Source: Octopus vulgaris | Lineage: Eukaryota | Direction of reading: 5' to 3' | Length of the DNA stretch: 64,000 nucleotides | Assembly: GCA_951406725.2 (NCBI GenBank) | Contig: OX597819.1 | Coordinates: forward strand, 12,090,001-12,154,000 | Shown: positions 3,601 through 64,000 of the stretch, piece by piece | How the letters are laid out: each line of letters opens with the position of its first letter | How positions within the stretch are numbered: position 1 is the first letter of the stretch | Program-made: the position numbers and the translations under genes | Notes under the pieces: generated by a model | Told to the model about the DNA's origin: nothing | Seen by the model: the letters and a program-made list of their open reading frames with translations, nothing else | Databases searched by the model: none

Positions 3601-4081
3601 GTGACCTGATGTGAGATTAAAACTGAAATGAATTACATTGGGAAAGAGCCATGAGAGCCTCCACCTCACACACACACATATATCATTATACTGACTTTGA
3701 TTTTGTTTTGTGGTAGTAATATTGTATGTTATGTATCGAAGACTTTCAAAGAGAAGATCACTGACTAGGGTTGTAGGTGCCTGCCAACAGACTTAGATAT
3801 TTGATAATTCATAATTATACTAATTAGAGATTAATGATAAAATTAACAATAAAATATGCTGAAAGTAGTTAGTGCATGTATATGTTGAATAGCTGCAGTT
3901 GTAACTCATTATCATCATTATCATTTAATATCTGTTTTTACAAGAGCTGGAGAGTTGCACCAGGCTCCGGTTGCCTGTTTCAACATGGTTTCCATGGTTG
4001 GATGCTCTTCCTAACACCAACTTGTAAAAACAGATATTAAATGATAATGATGATAATGAGTTACAACTGCAGCTATTCAAT

Positions 4082-4559
4082 ATAAGATCTGGTCATCAAA
4101 TCTAAGTAGAGACTTCAAACTTGAAATCTCCAAAGCCACAGTCGAACCAATTCTACTATATGGCTCAGAAACCTGGACGTTATCAAAGAAGCTTGAGAGG
4201 CGGTTGGATGGAACCTACACTTGCCTCCTTATGAGAGCTCAAAATCTCTTGTGGAAGCACCATCCAACCAAAATGCAAATATATGGGAAACTACCACCTG
4301 TGTCATCTCTTGTGAAAGGTAAGAGAGTCCAGTTTGCTGGACATTGTTGTAGAGCTGAAAAAGAGGTAATTTCTACTCTTCTCCTCTGGAAGCCATCTAC
4401 TCGCAATACCAGAGGGCGCACACTCTCCTACCCTGATGTAATCTCCAGGGATATAGGCATCCAGCAACAGGACCTCTGTAATGCCATGATGGACTGTGAA
4501 GTCTGGCGTAGCATGGTAAATTCATTGTCTTGACCACGGTCGAACAATGATGATGATAG
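4082..4559 (+). mobile_element. 5'-truncated RTE-clade LINE (ORF2 C-terminus) with (TGA)n tail
   Basis: LLYGSETWTL motif; highly similar to 21482-22143; TSD aacaccaact at 4013-4022 and 4560-4569. Confidence 0.85.
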
Positions 4560-20605: not shown

Positions 20606-21420
20606 AAATAAATGGAGTTTAACGCAGGTGTAAATCAAATATTTTACTTTCGGGATAGAAAAAGTATTTAGTAAAAGTATTTAGGGATAGAAATAAACGT
20701 AATAGTACCGGTCTCAGCAAACTGATTTGGGATCTAAAAGACCACAATGAACAATTTCATTTAGAATGGTTGATTCTCTCAATCTCGATACCTTATGACA
20801 AAGGCAAGGAATTCTGTCTTTTATGCAATTCTGAGCTATTTTTCATTATTTTTTCTAAAATTCCCCTAGTAAACACGGTTATAGAGCGAGCATATCGATG
20901 TAAACATTGGCAAAAACACACCTTTAATGCATATAAGTAGTCTCTATCATTATATATAATTTAAACTTTAATTTCCTTTATATTTAACATTCACTATTAA
21001 TATCCCTACTCTTTCTGTAAACTACTTATGACGTTATATCATATAACGTTTTTTAAACAATATTAATAGCGTTCAGTTAATCTCTGTACAAATCCATCAC
21101 TTTTTGCTAAAATGTCTTATTGACGAGTTTCGTTTTTTTCACTTTCCTGAAGAGAAGATTGCATTGTTTATACCATTTATTCTTTTGAATAGTATCATTG
21201 GAATTTTCGAAACATGTGTCGAAAGTAAAATATTTTATTTACACCTGCGTTAAACTCCATTTATTTAATCATATATTATACAAAAAATTCTACGTAAACA
21301 CGAAGTTTCTACCTTTATAAACAAGGAGTTACAACCTCTTTACTTGTGAGATTTTTGTTACCCTGGTAACTATTTATTTATTTTTCCGTGTTGATTGTTA
21401 ACAAGGTAAAAATACACTCA
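20605..21420 (+). mobile_element. Penelope-like element 3' fragment (GIY-YIG C-terminal region plus pLTR) with inverted terminal segment
   Basis: NSTGLSKLIWDLK...WLILS..PYDKGKEFCLLCNSE...RCKH peptide; hammerhead core; 48-bp inverted repeat 20605-20652 / 21220-21267. Confidence 0.7.
21141..21226 (+). ncRNA. Type I hammerhead ribozyme of the Penelope pLTR
   Basis: ACTTTC-CTGAAGA-GAAGATT...AATTTTC-GAAA-CATGT-GTC^-GAAAGT; stems I and II pair, minimal stem III. Confidence 0.65.
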
Positions 21421-21481
<61 letters not shown>

Positions 21482-21482
<1 letters not shown>

Positions 21483-22140
21483 GAGGCCAAAACTGAATAC
21501 ATAAACAAGTGCCTGTCCAACAGTGATTGCATCATCCACACTCTCAACAGTGCACCTTTAAATATGGTTTCTGATTATAAATATCTTGGGTCATACATAT
21601 CATCATCTGGAAAAGACTTTCTAACTAGAAAGGGTATGGCCTGGTCAGCCTGTAATGACATGCATAAGATCTGGTCATCAAATCTAAGTAGAGACTTCAA
21701 ACTTGAAATATTCAAAGCCACAGTCGAACGAATCCTACTATATGGCTCAGAAACCTGGACGTTATCAAAGAAGCTTGAGAGGCGGTTGGATGGAACCTAC
21801 ACTCGCCTCCTTATGAGAGCTCAAAATCTCTCGTGGAGGCGCCATCCAACTAAAATGCAAATATATGGGAAATTACCACCTGTGTCATCTCTTGTGAAGG
21901 GTAGGAGAGTCCAGTTTGCTGGACATTGTTGTAGAGCTGAAAAAGAAGTAATTTCTACTCTTCTCCTCTGGAAGCCATCTACTCGCAACACCAGAGGGCG
22001 CACACTCTCCTACCCTGATGTAATCTCCAGGGATACAGGCATCCAGCAACAGGACCTCCGTAATGCTATGATGGACCGTGAAGTCTGGCGCAACATGGTA
22101 AATTCCATTGTCTCGACCACGGTCGAACAATGATGAATGA

Positions 22141-39426: not shown

Positions 39427-40414
39427 TGTCTTCGTTAAATTTTACAGTCTTATTCTTTCATTCTGAAGACATAAATTGGTTGATAAATCTTTCTACCCTA
39501 ACACAGCAGACTCTCAGTATCCTCTGCAGAAAATCTTCTTTCAAATGGAAATATGTCCTGAAAGAAAAATAAAATGAATATTAGATACTAATGACCAAAA
39601 AGTTGTGAAATGAGTAGCTATTTATGTTGTATATAATTTACCATTCTCATCAATATCGCATAATCAATAGATCAGTAAGTCACAACTTTTATCTACATTA
39701 CCTCTGTTCAGGATTAATAGAATATTCCCTAAGTCCTCATCATTATTATTTAACACATAAGGCACTGGGATTTGCTCTTACAAAGCATGGACTGCTGACC
39801 ACATTTCATGAAAATGAGATTACCATGCACACATAAAAAATAAATGTAATAGCTTCTTAGTACATAATAGTGGCAAGTTGACTTTGACTTTCATCCTTTC
39901 GGAGTCGATAAATTAAGATCTAATCGACTGGCCCCTCCCCCAAAAATTTCGGGCCTTAGGCCTAGAGTAGAAAAGAATATTTACCAGCATATGTGAACCT
40001 GGACACAGAACCATCACACCTATCCACGAAGCCGGGTATTTAAGAGGCCCTTAATTAACATAAAGCCTGACACTACCCGGAAACAAAAGATGTAGGAATT
40101 GAATCTGAAAGCAAAAATGCCCGGAAAATAACGGGGGTGGGGGAGGCCTTCGGAAAATTCGGGACCTGAGGAAAAGTCTAATTTGTGATTTCAAAAGGAT
40201 TATATTTTCCTCAAAGTTACAAGGCAGAAATTCGAATCTTGTGAGGATTTTCCGAAGGCCTCTCCTCACCCTCTGTTACACTATTTTTTTTTTTTCCGAT
40301 TTCGTTTCCGAGTAATAATGTCAACATTAACCGAAAACCTTTTATATCGACCCAGGATGCGAAACAATTATATTAAAACGCATAAAAGCAATAGATAAAT
40401 AATCGTCATCTTAC

Positions 40415-54670: not shown

Positions 54671-56505
54671 TCTACAGAGGGTAATTTTCTTTTTCTTTTT
54701 TTTGACAACAAAGTTTCAAGTGAAATCGCTGGTTTTAATTAAAATGAGATATATTCTGTGTTGCTATTATGCTGATATAGATACACCATTTCTCATCCGA
54801 CACCATTAGGAGCACATACGTTTTGGAATTTGGGGATCTTTTCCTTTTTGCTGTCAGTATTTCAAAATTAATTTTTACTGAAAATTTTAAATTTTGGCAC
54901 ATTAAGATACTATTCAACTTACTTAAGCTCATTAGAGGTTCAGGTCATTGTGATGATAAAATAGTGAACAGTTGACTTAAGAAGTGCAGAGATAATCATG
55001 GGTTGGGTCTGCAGGGTCAGAAAGATACAAAGATTATTTGGAATGACTGTAAATGAGTTATCAAAGGATGGTTTTCAGGAATAATGGCAGTACAGAACTA
55101 TAGGGAAGTTCAGTTCCTGTGTCTGCATGTTCAGCCAGTGGTGATAATTTATCTAGATTTATAAGACAATCGAAACTACCACACGACCAGATCCATAACA
55201 ACCATGATAATATAATCAATAGCATATCCTCATGACAACCATGGGGCTTTACATCAAAATGTTATAACATTGTTATACTTGACGATGGTCATATTTTGCC
55301 AATTAAACACGCACACACTATATATTTGGTCTACTCTTCAGCTTTATCATTATTCTAGTTTCTTTCTTAAAGCTCTTTCATCCCACATCTTGTGACCTCT
55401 TCAGTAACTCTCTATACCATGTCTCTTCTTGTTCTGCTTATTCCATTTTGTCTTTCTCTGCTATGTATCCATATATGTGCATGTTTTGTGTGCATATGCG
55501 CTTGCTTACTACATCGTTTGTACCTGGGTCTTTTATTTTTTCCTTTCTCATTCCATTTACTGTCTTTGTGTGTGTGTGTATTGGTTTATGTATTATACTG
55601 TATCTGTCTTTAGTCATCAGGCTATGCAGTCTAATGGCGTGGGGTGATGTTAAACCATTCATGTTTTCTGTTCAGACTCAGTTCATCGAATACTGTGCAT
55701 GTGGGCCCTCCATAATATGAGTGTCATGTCTGGTCTATGTGATTAAGTCTACACTATTAACCAAACTTTCATATTCGAATTGAACATGTTGGTAGAGCAC
55801 TGATGAACTTTTCCTTCAGCGTCCAGCAGTGTGTCATTGTCCTGTTTCTCTACTATGCCTCACTACATGCTACACAATATGCTACTTTCCAAACTCTACT
55901 GTTCATCTGTGGGTTCATCCTGCACACTATACAGTTGCTCTCCTGATCTGGGATTTCATGGTGATCCCTGCTCTTTCTACAACTTTAATCCATAGATTCG
56001 TTTTACCAAAGGTTTTCCAAATTTATATGCTTCTTCACCTATAGGAGTATTATCAACAAACATCTGGTATTTTTAGTTATCATACCATGAGTTAGTTGGC
56101 CATATCTATCTTCTTCGTCCTTTCCATTGCTATTCCAAGTTTTATAGTGTAACAGATACCAATTTGCATCATTCTCTATGATGGCCTTATATTCAGACCT
56201 GGCTCCTTTGTACACTTTGATTGTATCCCTTTGACAGAAGCCAGACAACTGCATGTAGTGGATGAAGTCTTGTATGTTTCCCTAATTCTGTTGGGTGACT
56301 AGTAGTAATAACAAGTTTTCTCACTCTAACTATATCGTATGATACATGCAACGTGACAAGTAACATTACAAAGAAAAATTTACTACAATTTCCAAAAAAT
56401 ACACAAAACATGTTATAAACATTTATAGCACTTTAATAACATTCATATAGATAGATTCAATTCAAATATCACAATATGGTCAGATAATATGCTTTCCTAC
56501 AAAAG

Positions 56506-56845
56506 TCAGTGGTAAGGTTTATCTCCATTATTAACAGTACATATGAGTAGATATATAATCAATACGAGTAAATGATTTCCCACAAATAACACAGCTGTAT
56601 GGTTTTTCCCCAGTATGAAAACGCTTGTCTTATTAAACACCTCAAGTTAGAAAATATTTTGCCACAGATTTCACAGTGGTGAGGTTTCTCTCCAGTGTGT
56701 GTATGTATATGTCCTTTAAAGCTGCCACTACTGGAAAATTCCTTGTCACAAATTTCAATGATATGGTTTTTCTCCAGTATGTGTAAGTTTATGAACTAAT
56801 AGGACAGATTTTTCAGAAAATGCTTTCCCACAGATTTCACATTAG
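56506..56845 (-). pseudogene. Decayed former C-terminal fingers downstream of the ZNF-E stop
   Basis: frameshifted homolog of ZNF-D fingers 17-20 including the old terminal stop. Confidence 0.8.
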
Positions 56846-57874
56846 TTATGGCTTTTCTCCGGTGTGAATACGGTTATGTGTTGTTAAGCTGGTCTTAAGT
56901 GAAAATTCTTTTCCACATATTAAACAGTGATATGGTTTCTCTCCTGTGTGAATACGTCTGTGTCTTACTAAAGTACCAATTTGAGAAAATGCTTTGCCAC
57001 AGACTTCACAGTGATGTGGTTTTTCCCCAGTATGAATACGTTTGTGATTTACTAAGTTGCACCTACCAGCAAAGTCTTTTCCGCAAACCTCACAGTGATA
57101 TGGTTTCTCTCCAGTGTGAATTCGTTTGTGTAATGTTAAAACATATTTTTCAGGAAAAGCTTTCCCACAGATTTCACAGCGGTGTCGTTTTTCCCCTGTG
57201 TGAGTACGTTTATGCCTTATTAAGGTACCACACCCAGTAAATCCTTTCCCACATACTTCACAATGATATGGCTTCTCTCCACTGTGAATACGTTTGTGTA
57301 CTGTTAAAGAGTATTTTACAGAAAATGCTTTATCACAGATTTCACAGTGGAAAGGCTTCGAATGAACACCTTTGTGTGTTTCAAAGTTAGTTACATTAGA
57401 AAATGCTTTCCCACAATCATCACACTTATATGGTTCCTCCCCAGTGTGAATACGTTTATGTCTTGTTAAATTATTAACTTGATAAAATGATTTGCCACAG
57501 ATTTCACAACGGTATCGTTTTTCTCCTGTGTGAATAAGTTGATGACTTCTTGCACTACTGAACTCTGAAAATGCTTTGCCACAGATTTCACATTGGTATG
57601 GTTTCTCTCCTGTGTGTGTACGTTTGTGTACCTTTACGTAACCTTTACTAGAAAATGATTTTCCACATATTTCACAGTGAAATGGTTTCTCTCCGGTATG
57701 TGTACGTTTGTGTTCTGTTAAATAAGCTTTTACAGAGAATGCTTTCTTACATACTTCACAGTGGTATGGCTTTTCCCCAGTATGAGTGCACCGATGAATA
57801 GCTAAATTAGATTTTGTAGTAAGATCTTTGCCACAAATATCACATTTGTAACATTTGCTCACTTTCTGAAACAT
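56846..57874 (-). CDS. C2H2 zinc-finger protein ZNF-E, 342 aa, 12 fingers
   Basis: intact ORF; acceptor gives exon start at 58005. Confidence 0.88.
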   Translation of the reverse strand: MFQKVSKCYKCDICGKDLTTKSNLAIHRCTHTGEKPYHCEVCKKAFSVKAYLTEHKRTHTGEKPFHCEICGKSFSSKGYVKVHKRTHTGEKPYQCEICGKAFSEFSSARSHQLIHTGEKRYRCEICGKSFYQVNNLTRHKRIHTGEEPYKCDDCGKAFSNVTNFETHKGVHSKPFHCEICDKAFSVKYSLTVHKRIHSGEKPYHCEVCGKGFTGCGTLIRHKRTHTGEKRHRCEICGKAFPEKYVLTLHKRIHTGEKPYHCEVCGKDFAGRCNLVNHKRIHTGEKPHHCEVCGKAFSQIGTLVRHRRIHTGEKPYHCLICGKEFSLKTSLTTHNRIHTGEKP

Positions 57875-57989
57875 TCTCTCGGTTAATTTTTACAGTCTTA
57901 TTCTTTCATTCTGAAGACATAAATTGGTTGATAAATCTCTCTACCCTAACACAGCAGACTCTCAGTATCCTCTGCAGAAAATCTTCTTT

Positions 57990-59130
57990 CCAATGAAAAT
58001 ATGTCCTGAAAGAAAAATAAAATGAATATTAGATACTAATGACCAAAACGTTGTGAAATGAGTAGCTATTTGTGTGGTAAGTGATTGGGTATTCTCAACA
58101 ATATCTCACAATCACAACTTTGATCTATGTTGTCTCTGTTCAGGATTAATAGAATATTCCCTAAGTCCTCATCATTATTATTTAATATCCGTTTTTGGTC
58201 CTGGCAAGGGATGGCTAGTTTGGCAGGAACCAGCAGGGGCCCATCAGGCTTCATTGTCTGTTTTGGCATGGTTTCTACAGCTGGATGCCCTTCCTAATGC
58301 CAACCACTTTACAGAGTGTATAACACATTCTCCCCTAAGTAAACATTTCTAAAAAAAAAAAAAATGGTTTCCCTCCTTTGTGGTGGGTGAGAGTGCTATT
58401 GTCTTATTTGGCAGCGATAATTAACAATGTTTTCCCACATATTTCAGAGTATGCTTCTATCACCTGTTTGAATACATCTGTGATTAAACAAACTAACCAA
58501 TTGTTCATAATTAGATAAATAGATTTTTTGATTCCATGTGGTCAGAAGTAGCTTCATATGAAATATATAGAATTATTTCCATTACCACCTTTCAACGAAT
58601 ACTGAGCGTACCTGGCTAAACACTTGGTGGCATTTCATCCATCTTCACATTCTGACATGGTCAACTTTGCCTTTTATTCTTTTCGGTCAATTAATTAAGT
58701 ACTAGTTGAATACTTGCATTCATGTAAATCCACTGGCCCCCTCCCCTCAAACTGCTGGCCTTGTGCCAAAATCTGATATCAATAATTCTTGTTATTTTGA
58801 GAACAGATAAAACAAATCTTCAGCATGAAATCTGTTTCGTTCCTAAGTCTCTAGATGAAAGAGAGATGAGAAGAAAACATGACATGTAAAAAAAAATTCA
58901 AATCATTCATATAGATACACTGAATACTTAAGAATTACCAAAAAGTATTCCTATTATTTGGGACAGTGTTTAAGTAATACTCTGTTGGAGGTACTGTCAT
59001 GGGCCCAGGGTCATTGGAATATTTCCACTCAGTATTAATGTTTCACGTAATTATAGTTTTAGTTGAAATGGAACCACTTCCATTAATCTTTTTCCTCTTT
59101 CCATCAGTGGAATGTGGCCATGCTGGGGTA
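57990..59130. repeat. Duplicate of the ZNF-D intron 3' part (about 47005-48330)
   Basis: colinear sequence including shared embedded repeat fragments. Confidence 0.85.
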
Positions 59131-59440
59131 CAGCCTTTTGCAAATCTAGTATTTATTCACTTGGTTTCTTTATTGGTACTGTAAGTTATGGTGACATAAA
59201 CCAACCAACACTGGTTGTCAAGTGACAGTGAGGAGGTAATACAAGACACACACACATAAAGAAGCATCGAGTGAGGCTAATGCCTGTGCTGCCTCACTGG
59301 TACTCATGCCGGCGTCAAGTAAAAAGGTCCCACAACACTATCGGAGTGGTTGGCATTAAGAAGGGCATCCAACCATAGAAACCATGCCAAATCAGATTGG
59401 AGCCTGGTGCAACCACCCAGCTTACCAGTTCTCAGTCAAG

Positions 59441-59623
59441 CCATCACAGATTTCACAGTGGTGTGGTTTTTCCCCAGTGTGTATATGTATATGTCCTTTT
59501 AAGCTGCCACTATTGGAAAATTCCTTGTCACAAACTTCAATGATATGGTTTTTCTCCAGTATGAGTAAGTTTATGTACCAATAGGACAAATTTTTCTGAA
59601 AATGCTTTCCCACAAATTTCATA
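59441..59623 (-). pseudogene. Decayed, truncated tail fingers of ZNF-F
   Basis: frameshifted finger remnants ending abruptly at an RTE 3'UTR repeat near 59440. Confidence 0.78.
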
Positions 59624-60823
59624 TTACAGTGACTTTTGTCTAGTATGAATACGGTTATGTGTTGTTAAGCTGGTCTTAAGCGAAAATTCTTTCCCACATA
59701 TTAAACAGTGATATGGTTTCTCTCCTGTGTGAGTACGTCTGTGTCGTTTTAAACTACCAGTTTGCGAAAATGCTCTGCCACAGACTTCACAGTGATGTGG
59801 TTTTTCCCCAGTATGAATACGTTTGTGATTTACGAAGTTGCACTTACCAGCAAAGTCTTTTCCACAAACCTCACAGTGATATGGTTTCTCTCCTGTGTGA
59901 ATCCGTTTGTGTAATATTAGACAATATTTTTGAGGAAATGCTTTCCCACAGATTTCACAGTGGTGTTGTTTTTCTCCTGTGTGACTATGTTTATGCTTCA
60001 TTAAGGTACCTCTGTTTGTAAATCCTTTCCCACATACTTCACAGTGATATGGCTTCTCTCCAGTATGAAGACGTTTGTGTATTGTTAAAGAGTATTTTAC
60101 AGAAAATGCTTTATCACAGATTTCACAGTGGTAAGGTTTTGAGTGCACACCTCTGTGTATTTCACAGGCACTTGCAGTTGAAAAACCTTTCCCACAATCA
60201 TCACACTTGTATGGCTTCTCCCCAGTATGAGTATGTTTATGCGTTTTTAAATTACCAAGTCGAGAAAATGGTTTGCCACAGGTTTCACAATGGTATCGTT
60301 TTTCTCCAGTGTGAATAAGCTGATGACTTCTTACGCCATTGAACTGTGAAAATGCTTTGCCACAGATTTCACAATGAAATGGTTTCTCTCCTGTGTGTGT
60401 ACGTTTGTGAATCTTTAAGTAACCTTTATAAGAAAATGATTTTCCACATATTTCACAGTGAAATGGTTTTTCTCCAGTATGAATAAGTTGATGACTTTTT
60501 GCACTACTAAGATCTGAAAATGCTTTGCCACAGATTTCGCAATTGTATGGTTTCTCTCCAGTGTGAGTACGTTTGTGTACCTTTACGTAACCTTTACTAG
60601 AAAATGATTTTCCACATATTTCGCAGTGAAACGGTTTCTCTCCTGTATGTATATGTTTGTGTTCTGTTAAATAAGCTTTTACAGAAAATGCCTTCTCACA
60701 TACTTCACAGTGGTATAACTTCTCCCCAATATGAATGCGCTTATGAATAGCTAAATTATATTTTGTAGTAAGCACTTTACCACAAATACCACATTTGTAA
60801 CATTTGCTGACTTTGTGAAACAT
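59624..60823 (-). CDS. C2H2 zinc-finger protein ZNF-F, 399 aa, 14 fingers
   Basis: intact ORF; acceptor gives exon start at 60952. Confidence 0.88.
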
Positions 60824-61054
60824 TCTCTCAGTTAATTTTCAGTTTTATTCTTTTATTCTGAAGACATTAATTGGTTGATAAATCTTTCTACCCTAACACA
60901 GCAGACTTGCAGTATCCTCTGCAGAAAGTCTTCTTTCAAATGGAAATATGTCCTGAAAGAAAAGAAAATAGATATTAGATACTAACAACCAAAAGGTTGT
61001 GAAATGAATAGCTGTTTGTGTGGTATATGTTTGGCTATTCTCAACAACTCAATA

Positions 61055-61574
61055 TCACAAGATCCGATTTTTCCATCATAACTTTCGGTAAAATGGATAC
61101 ATATTAAATTTTTTTATTTTTACGGAATCCCACGTTTTTAGTTATGGAGGATCCGATTCTGAAAAGGAAATTTTCAAAAATCGCAATTTCGAAACTTCAA
61201 TTAAGGCCCCCACCCCCTTCATTTTTTACCTTCTCCGGAAATTTTTTCCTTTTTTTTTACGAAATACGTAAGAACACATACGAAGATTACGATTCTGAGA
61301 AAAAAAATTATTTGTAAAATTTCAATTTTTGACAAAAACATATATAAGCCCCAGGCCTTCAAGCAGGCTATCCACATGCTTGAAGTGACAGCTAAATCTC
61401 ACAAAATTGAGATAACATATTCAATCCGAAATATGGCCCTTGAAATTTTGAAAAAAAATTTTTCTTTTTTCAGAATCGAATCCTACATAACCAAAAACGT
61501 GCTATTCCATAAAAAAGAAAATCAATATATATCCATTTTACCGAAAGTTATGACAAAAAAATCGCCTCTTGTGA
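61055..61574. mobile_element. TIR MITE
   Basis: tcacaaga...cataactttcggtaaaatggata / tatccattttaccgaaagttatg...tcttgtga inverted ends. Confidence 0.7.
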
Positions 61575-62578
61575 ATTTTCCGAAAGTCCTATGCCCACCC
61601 CCCTAGGATCAACAGCGCGCATTTTTTTTCTTTTTTTCATATTCGTTTTCTATATACTTGTTAACACCCAGCTGGCTGGTTTGTTATTTTTTCTGTTCCC
61701 GGGTGAAATCTTTATATTTGTTTTAATTCAACGAAAGAAAATTTCCAATGATTCCCCTCGCCACCTCCTTTTTCCGAACAAAAATAAGGGATCTGCAGCA
61801 TATTCAAGGTACTTGATTCTACGCCAAAAAAAACCGATTTTTGTTCTTAGTGAAAATCGGGCGGGTGTTACTCATTGTTAATGCATTTTTCCAGGAGAGC
61901 TGCGATTCTGCATTAGTCTGGATTTAAGGGCACCGACTTTAAAATCTAACCAGTTTACTTCGCCTGCCATATCTCCTGGGACGATACACAAAGTACGAAT
62001 CAAAAACTGGAATCGATTTCTCTTTCCTGCTGCAATCAGATAAACGAATGGGCAAACGAGCGTTCACGACCCGGTTACTTCTTTCCACATTCTCCGGATA
62101 TAGGGAAGTCTCTAACATTTACCAGCAAATATGAATCTGGACACAGAACCATCACACCTATCCACGACAGCCAAGTGTTTAACCCTTTCATTACCGTATT
62201 TATTTTGAGATGCTCTGTGTTTCTTTCAATTATTTTAAATATAACAAAGAATTTAGTAAAATATCTTAGTTATCATTAAGCTAGTGTTAGGAACATAAAT
62301 TGTGACTGAGGTTTGGTGGAAGATTTTAATTCAGAACTTTTGAAAACAAGGCATTTGTACTACAGAGCCAGAGGCGGTTTCGGCCGGAGGCGACATTACA
62401 CAAACATGAATAACAGTAATTTACAGAGGAGAGGTTAGTTAATAGCGTTGACCCTTAATTAACGGAAAGCCTTTTGGCTAAATTACGGTATGAGTACCAT
62501 AGTTTAAGATCGCCGGCCTTTTATATCGATACAGGATACAACACAAATATGTATGTTAAACACATACAAACAATAGCT

Positions 62579-63771
62579 GGTAATCTTTCAGTATCTGGTG
62601 ATAGAAGAAGTAAATGGAAATTGAAGGGAAAACAAATAAGTCAACTTACTGTTAAACAACGTAGACATAGCAAAAAGTGAACAAAAGTATTTTTCTTTGG
62701 TACTGAATTCCTCCACATAAATTTTTGGATTTAAGGGCACCGACTTTAAAATCTAACCAGTTTACTTCGCCTGTCATATCTCCTGGGACGATACACAAAG
62801 TACGAATTTGTGTAAATACTAATTCTAGTTTATTGGCCACAAGGGCTAACAAAAATCAAAGAAACATGCAAGGACAAATACAGGACGATATAAAGGTCCG
62901 TGTAAACATTGAAAATAACAACGAATATATATATAACAAGTAAAACTCCCAATAGGGGAAGGCGCTTCGAAAAGGTTACTCGTGGATAAATATGAAACGA
63001 ATAAATTGTCTGAAGTTCCAAATTGACGTTGTAATTTTGTTTTTACCCGCATCCAAATATTCTCCACATTTTGCGCGTGGACGTCCTTATTCGTCTACAA
63101 ACCCGTGGGCACGTTTACAAAGTCAGAAAACAGCACAGCTCCCATGACTTCAGGAAGCATTTTTTCACGCTGAGAGTTGCTGAAGCATGGAACAAACTGT
63201 CGGCATCAGTTGTTAGTTGTCGGAGCACTGCATCCTTCAAAACTTCCATGCTTTCTGAGATTCGCCAACACTACACCTGATTTTCTCCCCTCCTTACACA
63301 CACAAGCATGTATCTGACTCATACAATGTTCGCTTTCCAGACATTTTTACATTACTGCATGTACTTTATATGCACTTTCTGACAAGTTGTGGTGCATCTG
63401 AGCACTGTATACAATAATTTCAATATTATTATTATTATTTTAAACTCCTCTCGATGCACAATCATTTCGTGAGAGCACATACCGTCATTTAAGCATCCAA
63501 TATTGATGTAGGATCGCCGGCCATCACTCGCAATGTGACTCTCCCTGGAAGAATAGAGCAAGTCTGTACAATACGATCAGGCACTTCAACTAGGAAGCAT
63601 TTTTTGGAAATCCTTTCAATGCCACCGAAAACCCAACGGCCAGCTAGCGGTTGCCCATTACTATCAACTCCGACAATTTTGGAGAATGATTTCGGTGGAA
63701 GAACGAGAACTTAATTATCTCCCGTTTAATTTGTATTTACTTCTTTCATCACCAGATACTGAAAGCTTGCC
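62579..63771. mobile_element. Old TIR DNA transposon in the ZNF-F intron
   Basis: ctttcagtatctggtgat / atcaccagatactgaaag TIRs; degenerate 8-bp TSD caatagct / caatggat, with the paralogous empty site caatagat at 40389. Confidence 0.65.
63085..63440 (+). mobile_element. CR1-clade LINE 3' end
   Basis: TRGH..K...RKHFFTLRVAEAWNKL...SFK motif and (ATT)n tail. Confidence 0.8.
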
Positions 63772-63797
63772 CAATGGATAATTAAACGTTATCTTAC

Positions 63798-63950
63798 CTT
63801 AACACATTTCTTCTCCTGAATAACTACCCATTCTTAGTATCAATCACAAACATCAACTGCTAAATAATTCTAACGCCGTCCACGAGGAATCGGTAAAAGC
63901 ATGGCCAGAGACTAAGATGGCGGTGTTATATATGAAATCAAGTCACGTGG
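63798..63950 (-). promoter_or_regulatory. Promoter and leader exon upstream of ZNF-F (and possibly ZNF-E)
   Basis: GTCACGTGG 63942-63950, AAGATGGCGG 63914-63923, donor at 63797. Confidence 0.7.
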
Positions 63951-64000
63951 TCTACAGGCTAAGTTTTCTTTCGTTCTTCATTCGACAGAAAGTTTCGCCT

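What the first reader, a model, noticed from the sequence alone, without database searches (positions are those of the whole stretch)
56506..63950. One leader exon/promoter followed by two complete zinc-finger exons: possible alternative terminal-exon switch
Seen: ZNF-C and ZNF-D each have their own E-box/YY1 leader block (40.4 and 54.5 kb). ZNF-E has none that I can find: the 1.4 kb between its acceptor (58006) and the ZNF-F tail is a copy of intron sequence plus a repeat. ZNF-F lost its 3' flank at about 59440. Both exons keep strong tttttctttcag acceptors and intact ORFs (14 and 12 fingers). Inference: the 63797 donor may splice to either 60952 or 58005, giving two DNA-binding arrays from one promoter. 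Alternatively ZNF-E lies within a long ZNF-F 3'UTR.
Basis: partly seen in the sequence, partly recalled or inferred. Interest (0 to 1): 0.7.

Follow-up and report, generated by a model that had tools for sequence, protein, structure and literature searches.

The report
Fused zinc-finger genes share one promoter
In a cluster of zinc-finger genes, probably from an octopus, a deletion removed one gene's stop signal and the next gene's promoter, so the two are likely read as one long RNA from which splicing likely sometimes skips to the second gene, a local case of an arrangement already known in human genes.

Summary
The anatomy holds. ZNF-E (12 fingers) has no leader, and ZNF-F (14 fingers) has lost the family's conserved poly(A) block. 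One deletion at 59445 joins F's tail to a clipped repeat in E's old intron.

Contigs from 4 of 4 probable RNA runs cover nearly all of the gap between the genes unspliced. In one run, three contig ends match exactly a simulated splice from a leader into E. Another run fits a cryptic donor. A third shows one joint from inside the gap. The junction letters were not seen.

Best reading: a deletion-fused transcription unit with two acceptors 2.9 kb apart and one shared 3' end, rather than a clean terminal-exon switch. Two more exons of the 14-member cluster (G, L) are also leaderless and intact. Closest known case: human RNASE4/ANG. The scan noted a similar orphan finger array in another genome (e1-9260044). 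Regulation and translation of E are untested.

The parts
63798..63950 (-). Promoter and non-coding leader exon of ZNF-F: E-box 63942-63950, TATA-like 63926-63932, YY1-like 63914-63921; exon ends at 63798; the start site near 63900 is inferred
   Evidence: motif names are recalled
63790..63797 (-). Leader splice donor (GT at 63797)
62579..63771 (.). Decayed element with terminal inverted repeats (81% over 63 nt), inserted just behind the donor
   Evidence: no Pfam or Atlas hit for its fragments
59624..60952 (-). ZNF-F exon: acceptor at 60952, ATG 60823, 399 aa, 14 fingers, no effector domain
59840..59847 (-). Cryptic donor inside the F ORF, best-scoring donor-like site between 58006 and 64000; splicing to E would give an 11-finger, 339-aa protein
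   Evidence: use inferred from contig ends
59445..59623 (-). F 3' tail of degenerate fingers, cut at the deletion breakpoint 59445
   Evidence: contig X1 no. 8 crosses the breakpoint with no other letters
59279..59445 (.). Clipped multi-copy repeat (SINE-like); holds a donor-like site at 59425
58006..59256 (-). Remnant 3' half of ZNF-E's own intron; AATAAA at 59174, 59157 and 58678 without T-rich downstream sequence; one contig joint from 59081/59082 to the acceptor in organism B
56846..58005 (-). ZNF-E exon: acceptor at 58005, ATG 57874, 342 aa, 12 fingers, no effector domain, no leader
56370..56437 (-). Family-conserved poly(A)-like block (ATTAAA at 56437 plus T-rich downstream sequence); predicted shared 3' end of F and E RNAs
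   Evidence: cleavage site not mapped

Best explanation
A deletion joined two tandem zinc-finger paralogs, so ZNF-F's promoter likely drives one RNA that runs through F, the gap and E to E's predicted poly(A) site, and splicing likely picks either F's acceptor (F protein, with E as 3' UTR) or, in a share of molecules, E's acceptor (E protein predicted). Shown: the deletion, the lost leader, the lost poly(A) block, both intact ORFs and acceptors, and unspliced contigs over the gap. Inferred: that these contigs are mature RNA, that a leader splices into E, that the leader is F's rather than its twin at 75155, and that cryptic donors add side products (an 11-finger F from 59847; decay-prone RNA from 59425 or 59081). 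Untested: translation of E, tissue control and selection.
For: No leader between 54786 and 63764. Breakpoint anatomy. The conserved ATTAAA block aligns in 10 paralogs and is deleted in F; the hexamers in the gap are not enriched (3 observed, 1.3 expected, P=0.15) and have 17-24% T downstream against 49-59% at the real blocks. Contigs cover 30, 30, 29 and 27 of 30 bins in X1, X2, X6 and X10; they run unbroken through the 59174/59157 hexamers in all four; and they bridge E's acceptor unspliced by at least 31 letters on each side in X6 and X10. X1 holds 0.59 of the words of 56500-64000 and is nearly identical to the window in the gap; exons plus gap plus leader make 0.62 and F's intron 0.38, which fits gap kept and intron removed (inference). 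In X2, an E contig ends at 58006, the intron-side contig starts at 57978, and a paralog-exon contig ends with 21 leader-side letters; a k=31 simulation reproduces all three only when leader>E and a cryptic donor>E are both added. The E acceptor 24-mer is unique in the genome, and exon position 10 is where E differs from all 13 paralogs.
Against: No junction letters were seen: the loose-end table was filled by repeats (272 rows not shown) and neither the leader nor F's exon was laid. X6 and X10 show E's path unbranched at the acceptor, and X1 fits only a donor ending in a letter other than AG, so the leader>E sign is in 1 of 4 runs. The X2 paralog contig (4 other letters, no gap) matches no reference paralog exactly. 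The runs are only guessed to be RNA and may hold DNA or pre-mRNA; no silent control stretch was laid. X1 carries the window's own alleles and may not be independent of the assembly. X6 and X10 have no cover in the breakpoint bin. Sequence exchange between paralogs (E and C are 100% identical over 58134-58185) could both keep E intact and mimic the graph signal.
Confidence: 0.6

Rival explanations
1. E is a passenger: an orphaned exon carried only as 3' UTR of F and never translated. The splice-like contig ends come from cryptic donors or from a gene-converted allele of a leader-bearing paralog.
For: Unspliced entry is the only route seen in X6 and in the main X10 path. Conversion tracts exist. 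Martinez Gomez et al. treat read-through into paralogous neighbours as unlikely to be translated (PMC8373072, passages). A neutral 342-codon ORF would stay intact with P=0.28 after 1% divergence (assumed indel rate), so a recent loss needs no selection.
Against: Three contig ends in X2 match the leader>E model exactly. All 3 leaderless exons are intact with 12 fingers, while 2 of 11 leader-bearing ones (H, P) are truncated; the numbers are too small to test.
Confidence: 0.22
2. True alternative last exons: F ends at the new AATAAA pair at 59174/59157 and E is a separate terminal exon chosen by splicing.
For: Two AATAAA hexamers exist in E's copy where three aligned paralogs have other letters and D does not align, and would give F a 3' UTR of roughly normal length. 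Leader>E sign in X2.
Against: No T-rich downstream element and no enrichment over shuffles. Contigs pass through the site unbroken with no step in depth in X1, X2 and X6 (contig depth is a weak measure).
Confidence: 0.12
3. E has its own start site inside the gap, for example from the repeat.
For: The X10 contig runs from 59371 to 59081 and joins a family acceptor; its upstream end is not known.
Against: No leader homology. X1 contig no. 8 runs across the breakpoint from F's tail at the same depth as the gap (3.9 against 4.4-5.7).
Confidence: 0.04
4. The fusion is an assembly artefact and E has a leader in the living animal.
For: No cover in the breakpoint bin in X6 and X10; X1 may not be independent of the assembly.
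Against: X1 contig no. 8 crosses the junction with no other letters and X2 has cover in that bin. No N in 204 kb.
Confidence: 0.02

Closest known systems
Human RNASE4/ANG (PMC8373072 section 12 read; PMC2568002 passages)
   Same: Two homologous single coding exons behind a shared non-coding 5' exon and promoter, so splice choice swaps the whole protein.
   Different: Here the sharing arose by a deletion, F has no strong 3' end of its own, the unspliced read-through form is seen in every run, and the shared-leader splice is only inferred.
Tandem duplicated exon substitutions (PMC9741552 passages)
   Same: Homologous terminal exons used as alternatives; 77 of 236 human events swap C-terminal regions and one (DUSP13) swaps the whole protein.
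   Different: E is not a copy of F's exon (its intron matches D, G, H and P; dS to F 0.22). Those authors exclude read-through into paralogous neighbours.
Insect fruitless and mod(mdg4) (PMC3572092 passages; PMC13490949 start of abstract only)
   Same: One promoter region gives alternative zinc-finger or DNA-binding 3' exons.
   Different: They share a coding BTB part and are conserved across species; here the shared part is non-coding and conservation is not shown.
Expanded coleoid C2H2-ZNF clusters (PMC9068888 passages; PMC10547256 passages)
   Same: Tandem, finger-only C2H2 arrays with variable contact residues.
   Different: The passages read describe gene-level expansion and say nothing on shared leaders or isoforms.

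Membership tests
Tandem C2H2 (Kruppel-type) ZNF, PF00096 | Repeated C-X2-C-X12-H-X3-H fingers with TGEKP-type linkers | tested here: met
   12 and 14 fingers; PF00096 E 3.6e-60 and 2.3e-64
KRAB/SCAN/BTB-ZNF | N-terminal effector domain | tested here: not met
   No KRAB, SCAN or BTB family among the Pfam hits shown for E or F; the first finger starts at residue 11
RNASE4/ANG-type shared-leader pair | Two homologous single coding exons downstream of one non-coding leader | tested here: met
RNASE4/ANG-type shared-leader pair | The leader is spliced to each exon in RNA | tested here: inconclusive
   Contig-end geometry fits in 1 of 4 runs; letters not seen
RNASE4/ANG-type shared-leader pair | Both proteins are made | not testable with these tools
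   Needs ribosome profiling or peptides
Alternative last exons | Each terminal exon has its own poly(A) site | tested here: inconclusive
   F lacks the conserved block; cryptic hexamers look weak and contigs pass through them; 3' ends cannot be mapped from contigs
Tandem duplicated exon substitution | The second exon arose by duplication of the first inside one gene | tested here: not met
   E's upstream 1.1 kb matches other paralogs' introns and not F's
Read-through (conjoined) transcript | Continuous RNA from the upstream gene into the downstream gene | tested here: inconclusive
   Overlapping contigs from F's tail to E's exon, with short gaps at repeats; no single piece spans it; RNA status guessed

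The most novel reading that the evidence does not exclude
Repeated leader loss (E, G and L; 3 of 14 exons, each by a different lesion) is turning this octopus ZNF cluster into modules in which one promoter chooses among whole DNA-binding arrays by regulated splicing, a mirror image of the vertebrate protocadherin cluster, and selection keeps the leaderless arrays intact. The H>G pair, where the exon next to the leader is frameshifted and the skipped-to exon is whole, would be the end state.
Probability: 0.2. Interest if true: 0.7.

Novelty: new variant of a known kind. Interest (0 to 1): 0.38.

Why it matters
If E is translated, a zinc-finger gene can survive the loss of its promoter by riding on its neighbour, and one promoter gives two arrays that differ at 8 of 12 matched finger contact sets, with F holding two extra fingers. 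That would be a route for birth and rewiring in the large cephalopod ZNF expansions, and it means gene counts and expression values for these clusters mix genes, isoforms and 3' UTR passengers. If E is not translated, this is an ordinary step in cluster decay.

Tried and rejected
Exact look-up of the E, F and C proteins: 0 of 3 are in the collection, so no isoform annotation was available. Homolog searches with E returned generic ZNFs at 37-54% identity and, from residues 1-48, 12 hits at 38-63%, two of them named Octopus sinensis; no ortholog. The search with a retroelement ORF gave no organism names. No listed holder is on record as RNA. Parts without cover (breakpoint bin in X6 and X10; 58999-59080 in X10) are not counted as evidence of absence. 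Most joints lie between the two repeat copies and were set aside as repeat artefacts; only 58004>59081 touches the acceptor. That site is not a conserved donor: the window and 4 paralogs read GG there. The donor at 59425 was rejected as X1's route because X1 contig no. 8 passes it unbroken. Pairwise dN/dS of E against paralogs (0.35-0.72) reflects family history and cannot show selection since the leader was lost. Dating the deletion failed: organism B differs at only 3 of about 1,200 letters in the four listed gap contigs. E as a duplicate of F's exon was rejected. Transposase identity of the intron element was not confirmed.
Full report
Setting. The window is G000:C6:12090001-12154000 in a 2.8-Gb genome. 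I read it as an octopus. The basis is the genome size, two Octopus sinensis hits at 46-53% identity, unchecked notes on the same genome and recalled repeat types; no call names the species. With 140 kb of flanks, the region holds 14 exons that share one acceptor type. All 14 genome matches lie on C6 at 12.13-12.24 Mb. Two more diverged arrays at 15-16 kb and 26-27 kb were not assessed. Coordinates beyond 64000 continue the window numbering.

Normal gene plan. Each gene has an E-box/CCAAT/TATA/YY1-like block (motif names recalled), a short non-coding leader ending in AAG|GTAAG, one intron, and one exon with about 130 nt of 5' UTR and the whole finger array. A conserved ATTAAA plus T-rich block follows. 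Pfam shows no KRAB, SCAN or BTB domain in E or F. A profile of 10 leaders finds those 10 and one weak copy before exon O (E 1e-8). It finds none for E, G or L.

The lesion. F's tail aligns with E's tail up to 59445 and then switches, with one shared base, into a repeat copy that lacks about 40 nt present in the other 16 listed copies. Below the repeat lies the 3' half of a family intron, 81-86% like those of D, G, H and P and unlike F's own. One deletion therefore removed F's 3' end and E's promoter, leader and 5' intron. E is a separate paralog (dS to F 0.22) and not a copy of F's exon. The AATAAA hexamers left in the gap are no more than chance (3 observed, 1.3 expected, P=0.15) and lack T-rich downstream sequence.

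RNA, direct. Four of the 24 listed runs were laid on 57830-59470; the tool counts them as four studies, three of organism A and one of B. All are assembled contigs and only guessed to be RNA. They cover 30, 30, 29 and 27 of 30 bins, at depth 4-16 in the non-repeat parts of the gap. Contigs cross E's acceptor unspliced in all four, by at least 31 letters on each side in X6 and X10 and by 29 and 28 exon letters in X1 and X2. They pass the 59174/59157 hexamers unbroken. X1 contig no. 8 crosses the breakpoint with no other letters. One contig in X10 (depth 5) joins 59081/59082 to the acceptor; the window reads GG at that site, so a GT allele in B is a guess. X1 holds 0.59 of the words of 56500-64000, close to the 0.62 made up by exons, gap and leader.

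RNA, inferred from contig ends. In X2, an E-type contig ends at 58006, the intron-side contig starts at 57978, and a paralog-exon contig aligns to 58007 and carries 19 loose letters, which makes 21 leader-side letters. A k=31 simulation on window sequence gives exactly these three ends when both leader>E and 59847>E are added to read-through and leader>F. It gives X1's start at 57977 with the cryptic donor alone, and no break at the acceptor, as in X6 and X10, with neither. The test is specific because position 10 of the exon separates E from all 13 paralogs and the acceptor 24-mer is unique in the genome. It does not name the leader or the donor: any exon ending in AG, or in another letter plus G, would do. 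The leaders at 63798 and 75155 are identical over the last 40 nt examined. It assumes k=31 (taken from the tool texts) and strict unitigs. The paralog contig matches no reference exon exactly, so a converted allele remains possible.

How it likely works. F's promoter makes one RNA that ends at E's poly(A) block. Choosing 60952 gives a 4.5-kb last exon: F protein with a 3.2-kb 3' UTR that holds E untranslated. Choosing 58005 gives a normal E mRNA. Splicing from 59847 gives a 339-aa, 11-finger F with its stop in the last exon. Splicing from 59425 or 59081 leaves F's stop 198 or 542 nt before a junction, which predicts decay under the recalled 50-55-nt rule. E and F share 4 of 12 matched contact sets, so their targets likely differ.

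Recurrence. G and L also lack leaders. G has inverted intron pieces at 69.5-70.0 kb, and L keeps distal upstream sequence but not the proximal block. Both have 12 intact fingers. H, next to the twin leader and upstream of G, is frameshifted after 7 fingers, and P stops after 6. H and M keep their poly(A) blocks, so G and L would need true skipping. No RNA was laid for them. Three of 3 intact against 9 of 11 is suggestive only, and conversion between paralogs can also keep ORFs open.

Against what is known. A shared non-coding exon in front of two homologous single coding exons is described for human RNASE4/ANG (PMC8373072, section 12; PMC2568002, passages listing 24 promoter-sharing pairs). 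Alternative zinc-finger exons are known from fruitless (PMC3572092, passages). Five searches listed no paper on this in cephalopod ZNFs, judged from titles and starts of abstracts plus passages of PMC9068888, PMC9699675, PMC10547256 and PMC5363842. No supplements were read, and the isoform file of PMC9699675 may bear on it. An unchecked note from this scan describes a similar orphan array in another genome without RNA support.

Verdict. The feature is real. Read-through is the best-supported state and leader-to-E splicing is likely but indirect. It is a new variant of a known kind, interest 0.38.

Noticed in passing
window numbering continued: 63760-64000 and 75117-75357 (L002): The F and H leaders are 98% identical and both lack the CCAAT box seen in most paralogs, while their exons are not each other's closest relatives; this suggests promoter conversion or swapping.
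   Followed up: partly
window 62571-63771: Decayed element with terminal inverted repeats and a likely 8-bp target duplication; its broken frames recall a Merlin/IS1016-type transposase (recalled motif; no Pfam or Atlas hit).
   Followed up: partly
L001 and L005-L006 (continued numbering 66551-67711 and 106803-107956): Exons G and L also lack leaders and keep 12 intact fingers; G has also lost the conserved poly(A) block.
   Followed up: partly
L001 (continued numbering 71094-72254): Exon H is frameshifted after finger 7 although it sits next to an intact leader.
   Followed up: no
window 57907-57921 and paralogs: A 4-codon upstream ORF about 45 nt before the main ATG is shared by most of the nine paralogs listed; the leader holds further upstream ATGs.
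   Followed up: no
window 58134-58185 and 39702-39753: E and C are 100% identical over 52 nt and 97% around the acceptor, but only about 90% in the coding part: a likely conversion tract.
   Followed up: partly
window 21402-22133 and 4060-4533: Two fragments of a retroelement ORF; relatives at up to 94% identity lie in unnamed records, some with a reverse-transcriptase domain.
   Followed up: partly
window 57952: Runs X6 and X10 carry a variant found in none of the 14 reference paralogs, hinting at alleles or copies missing from this assembly.
   Followed up: no
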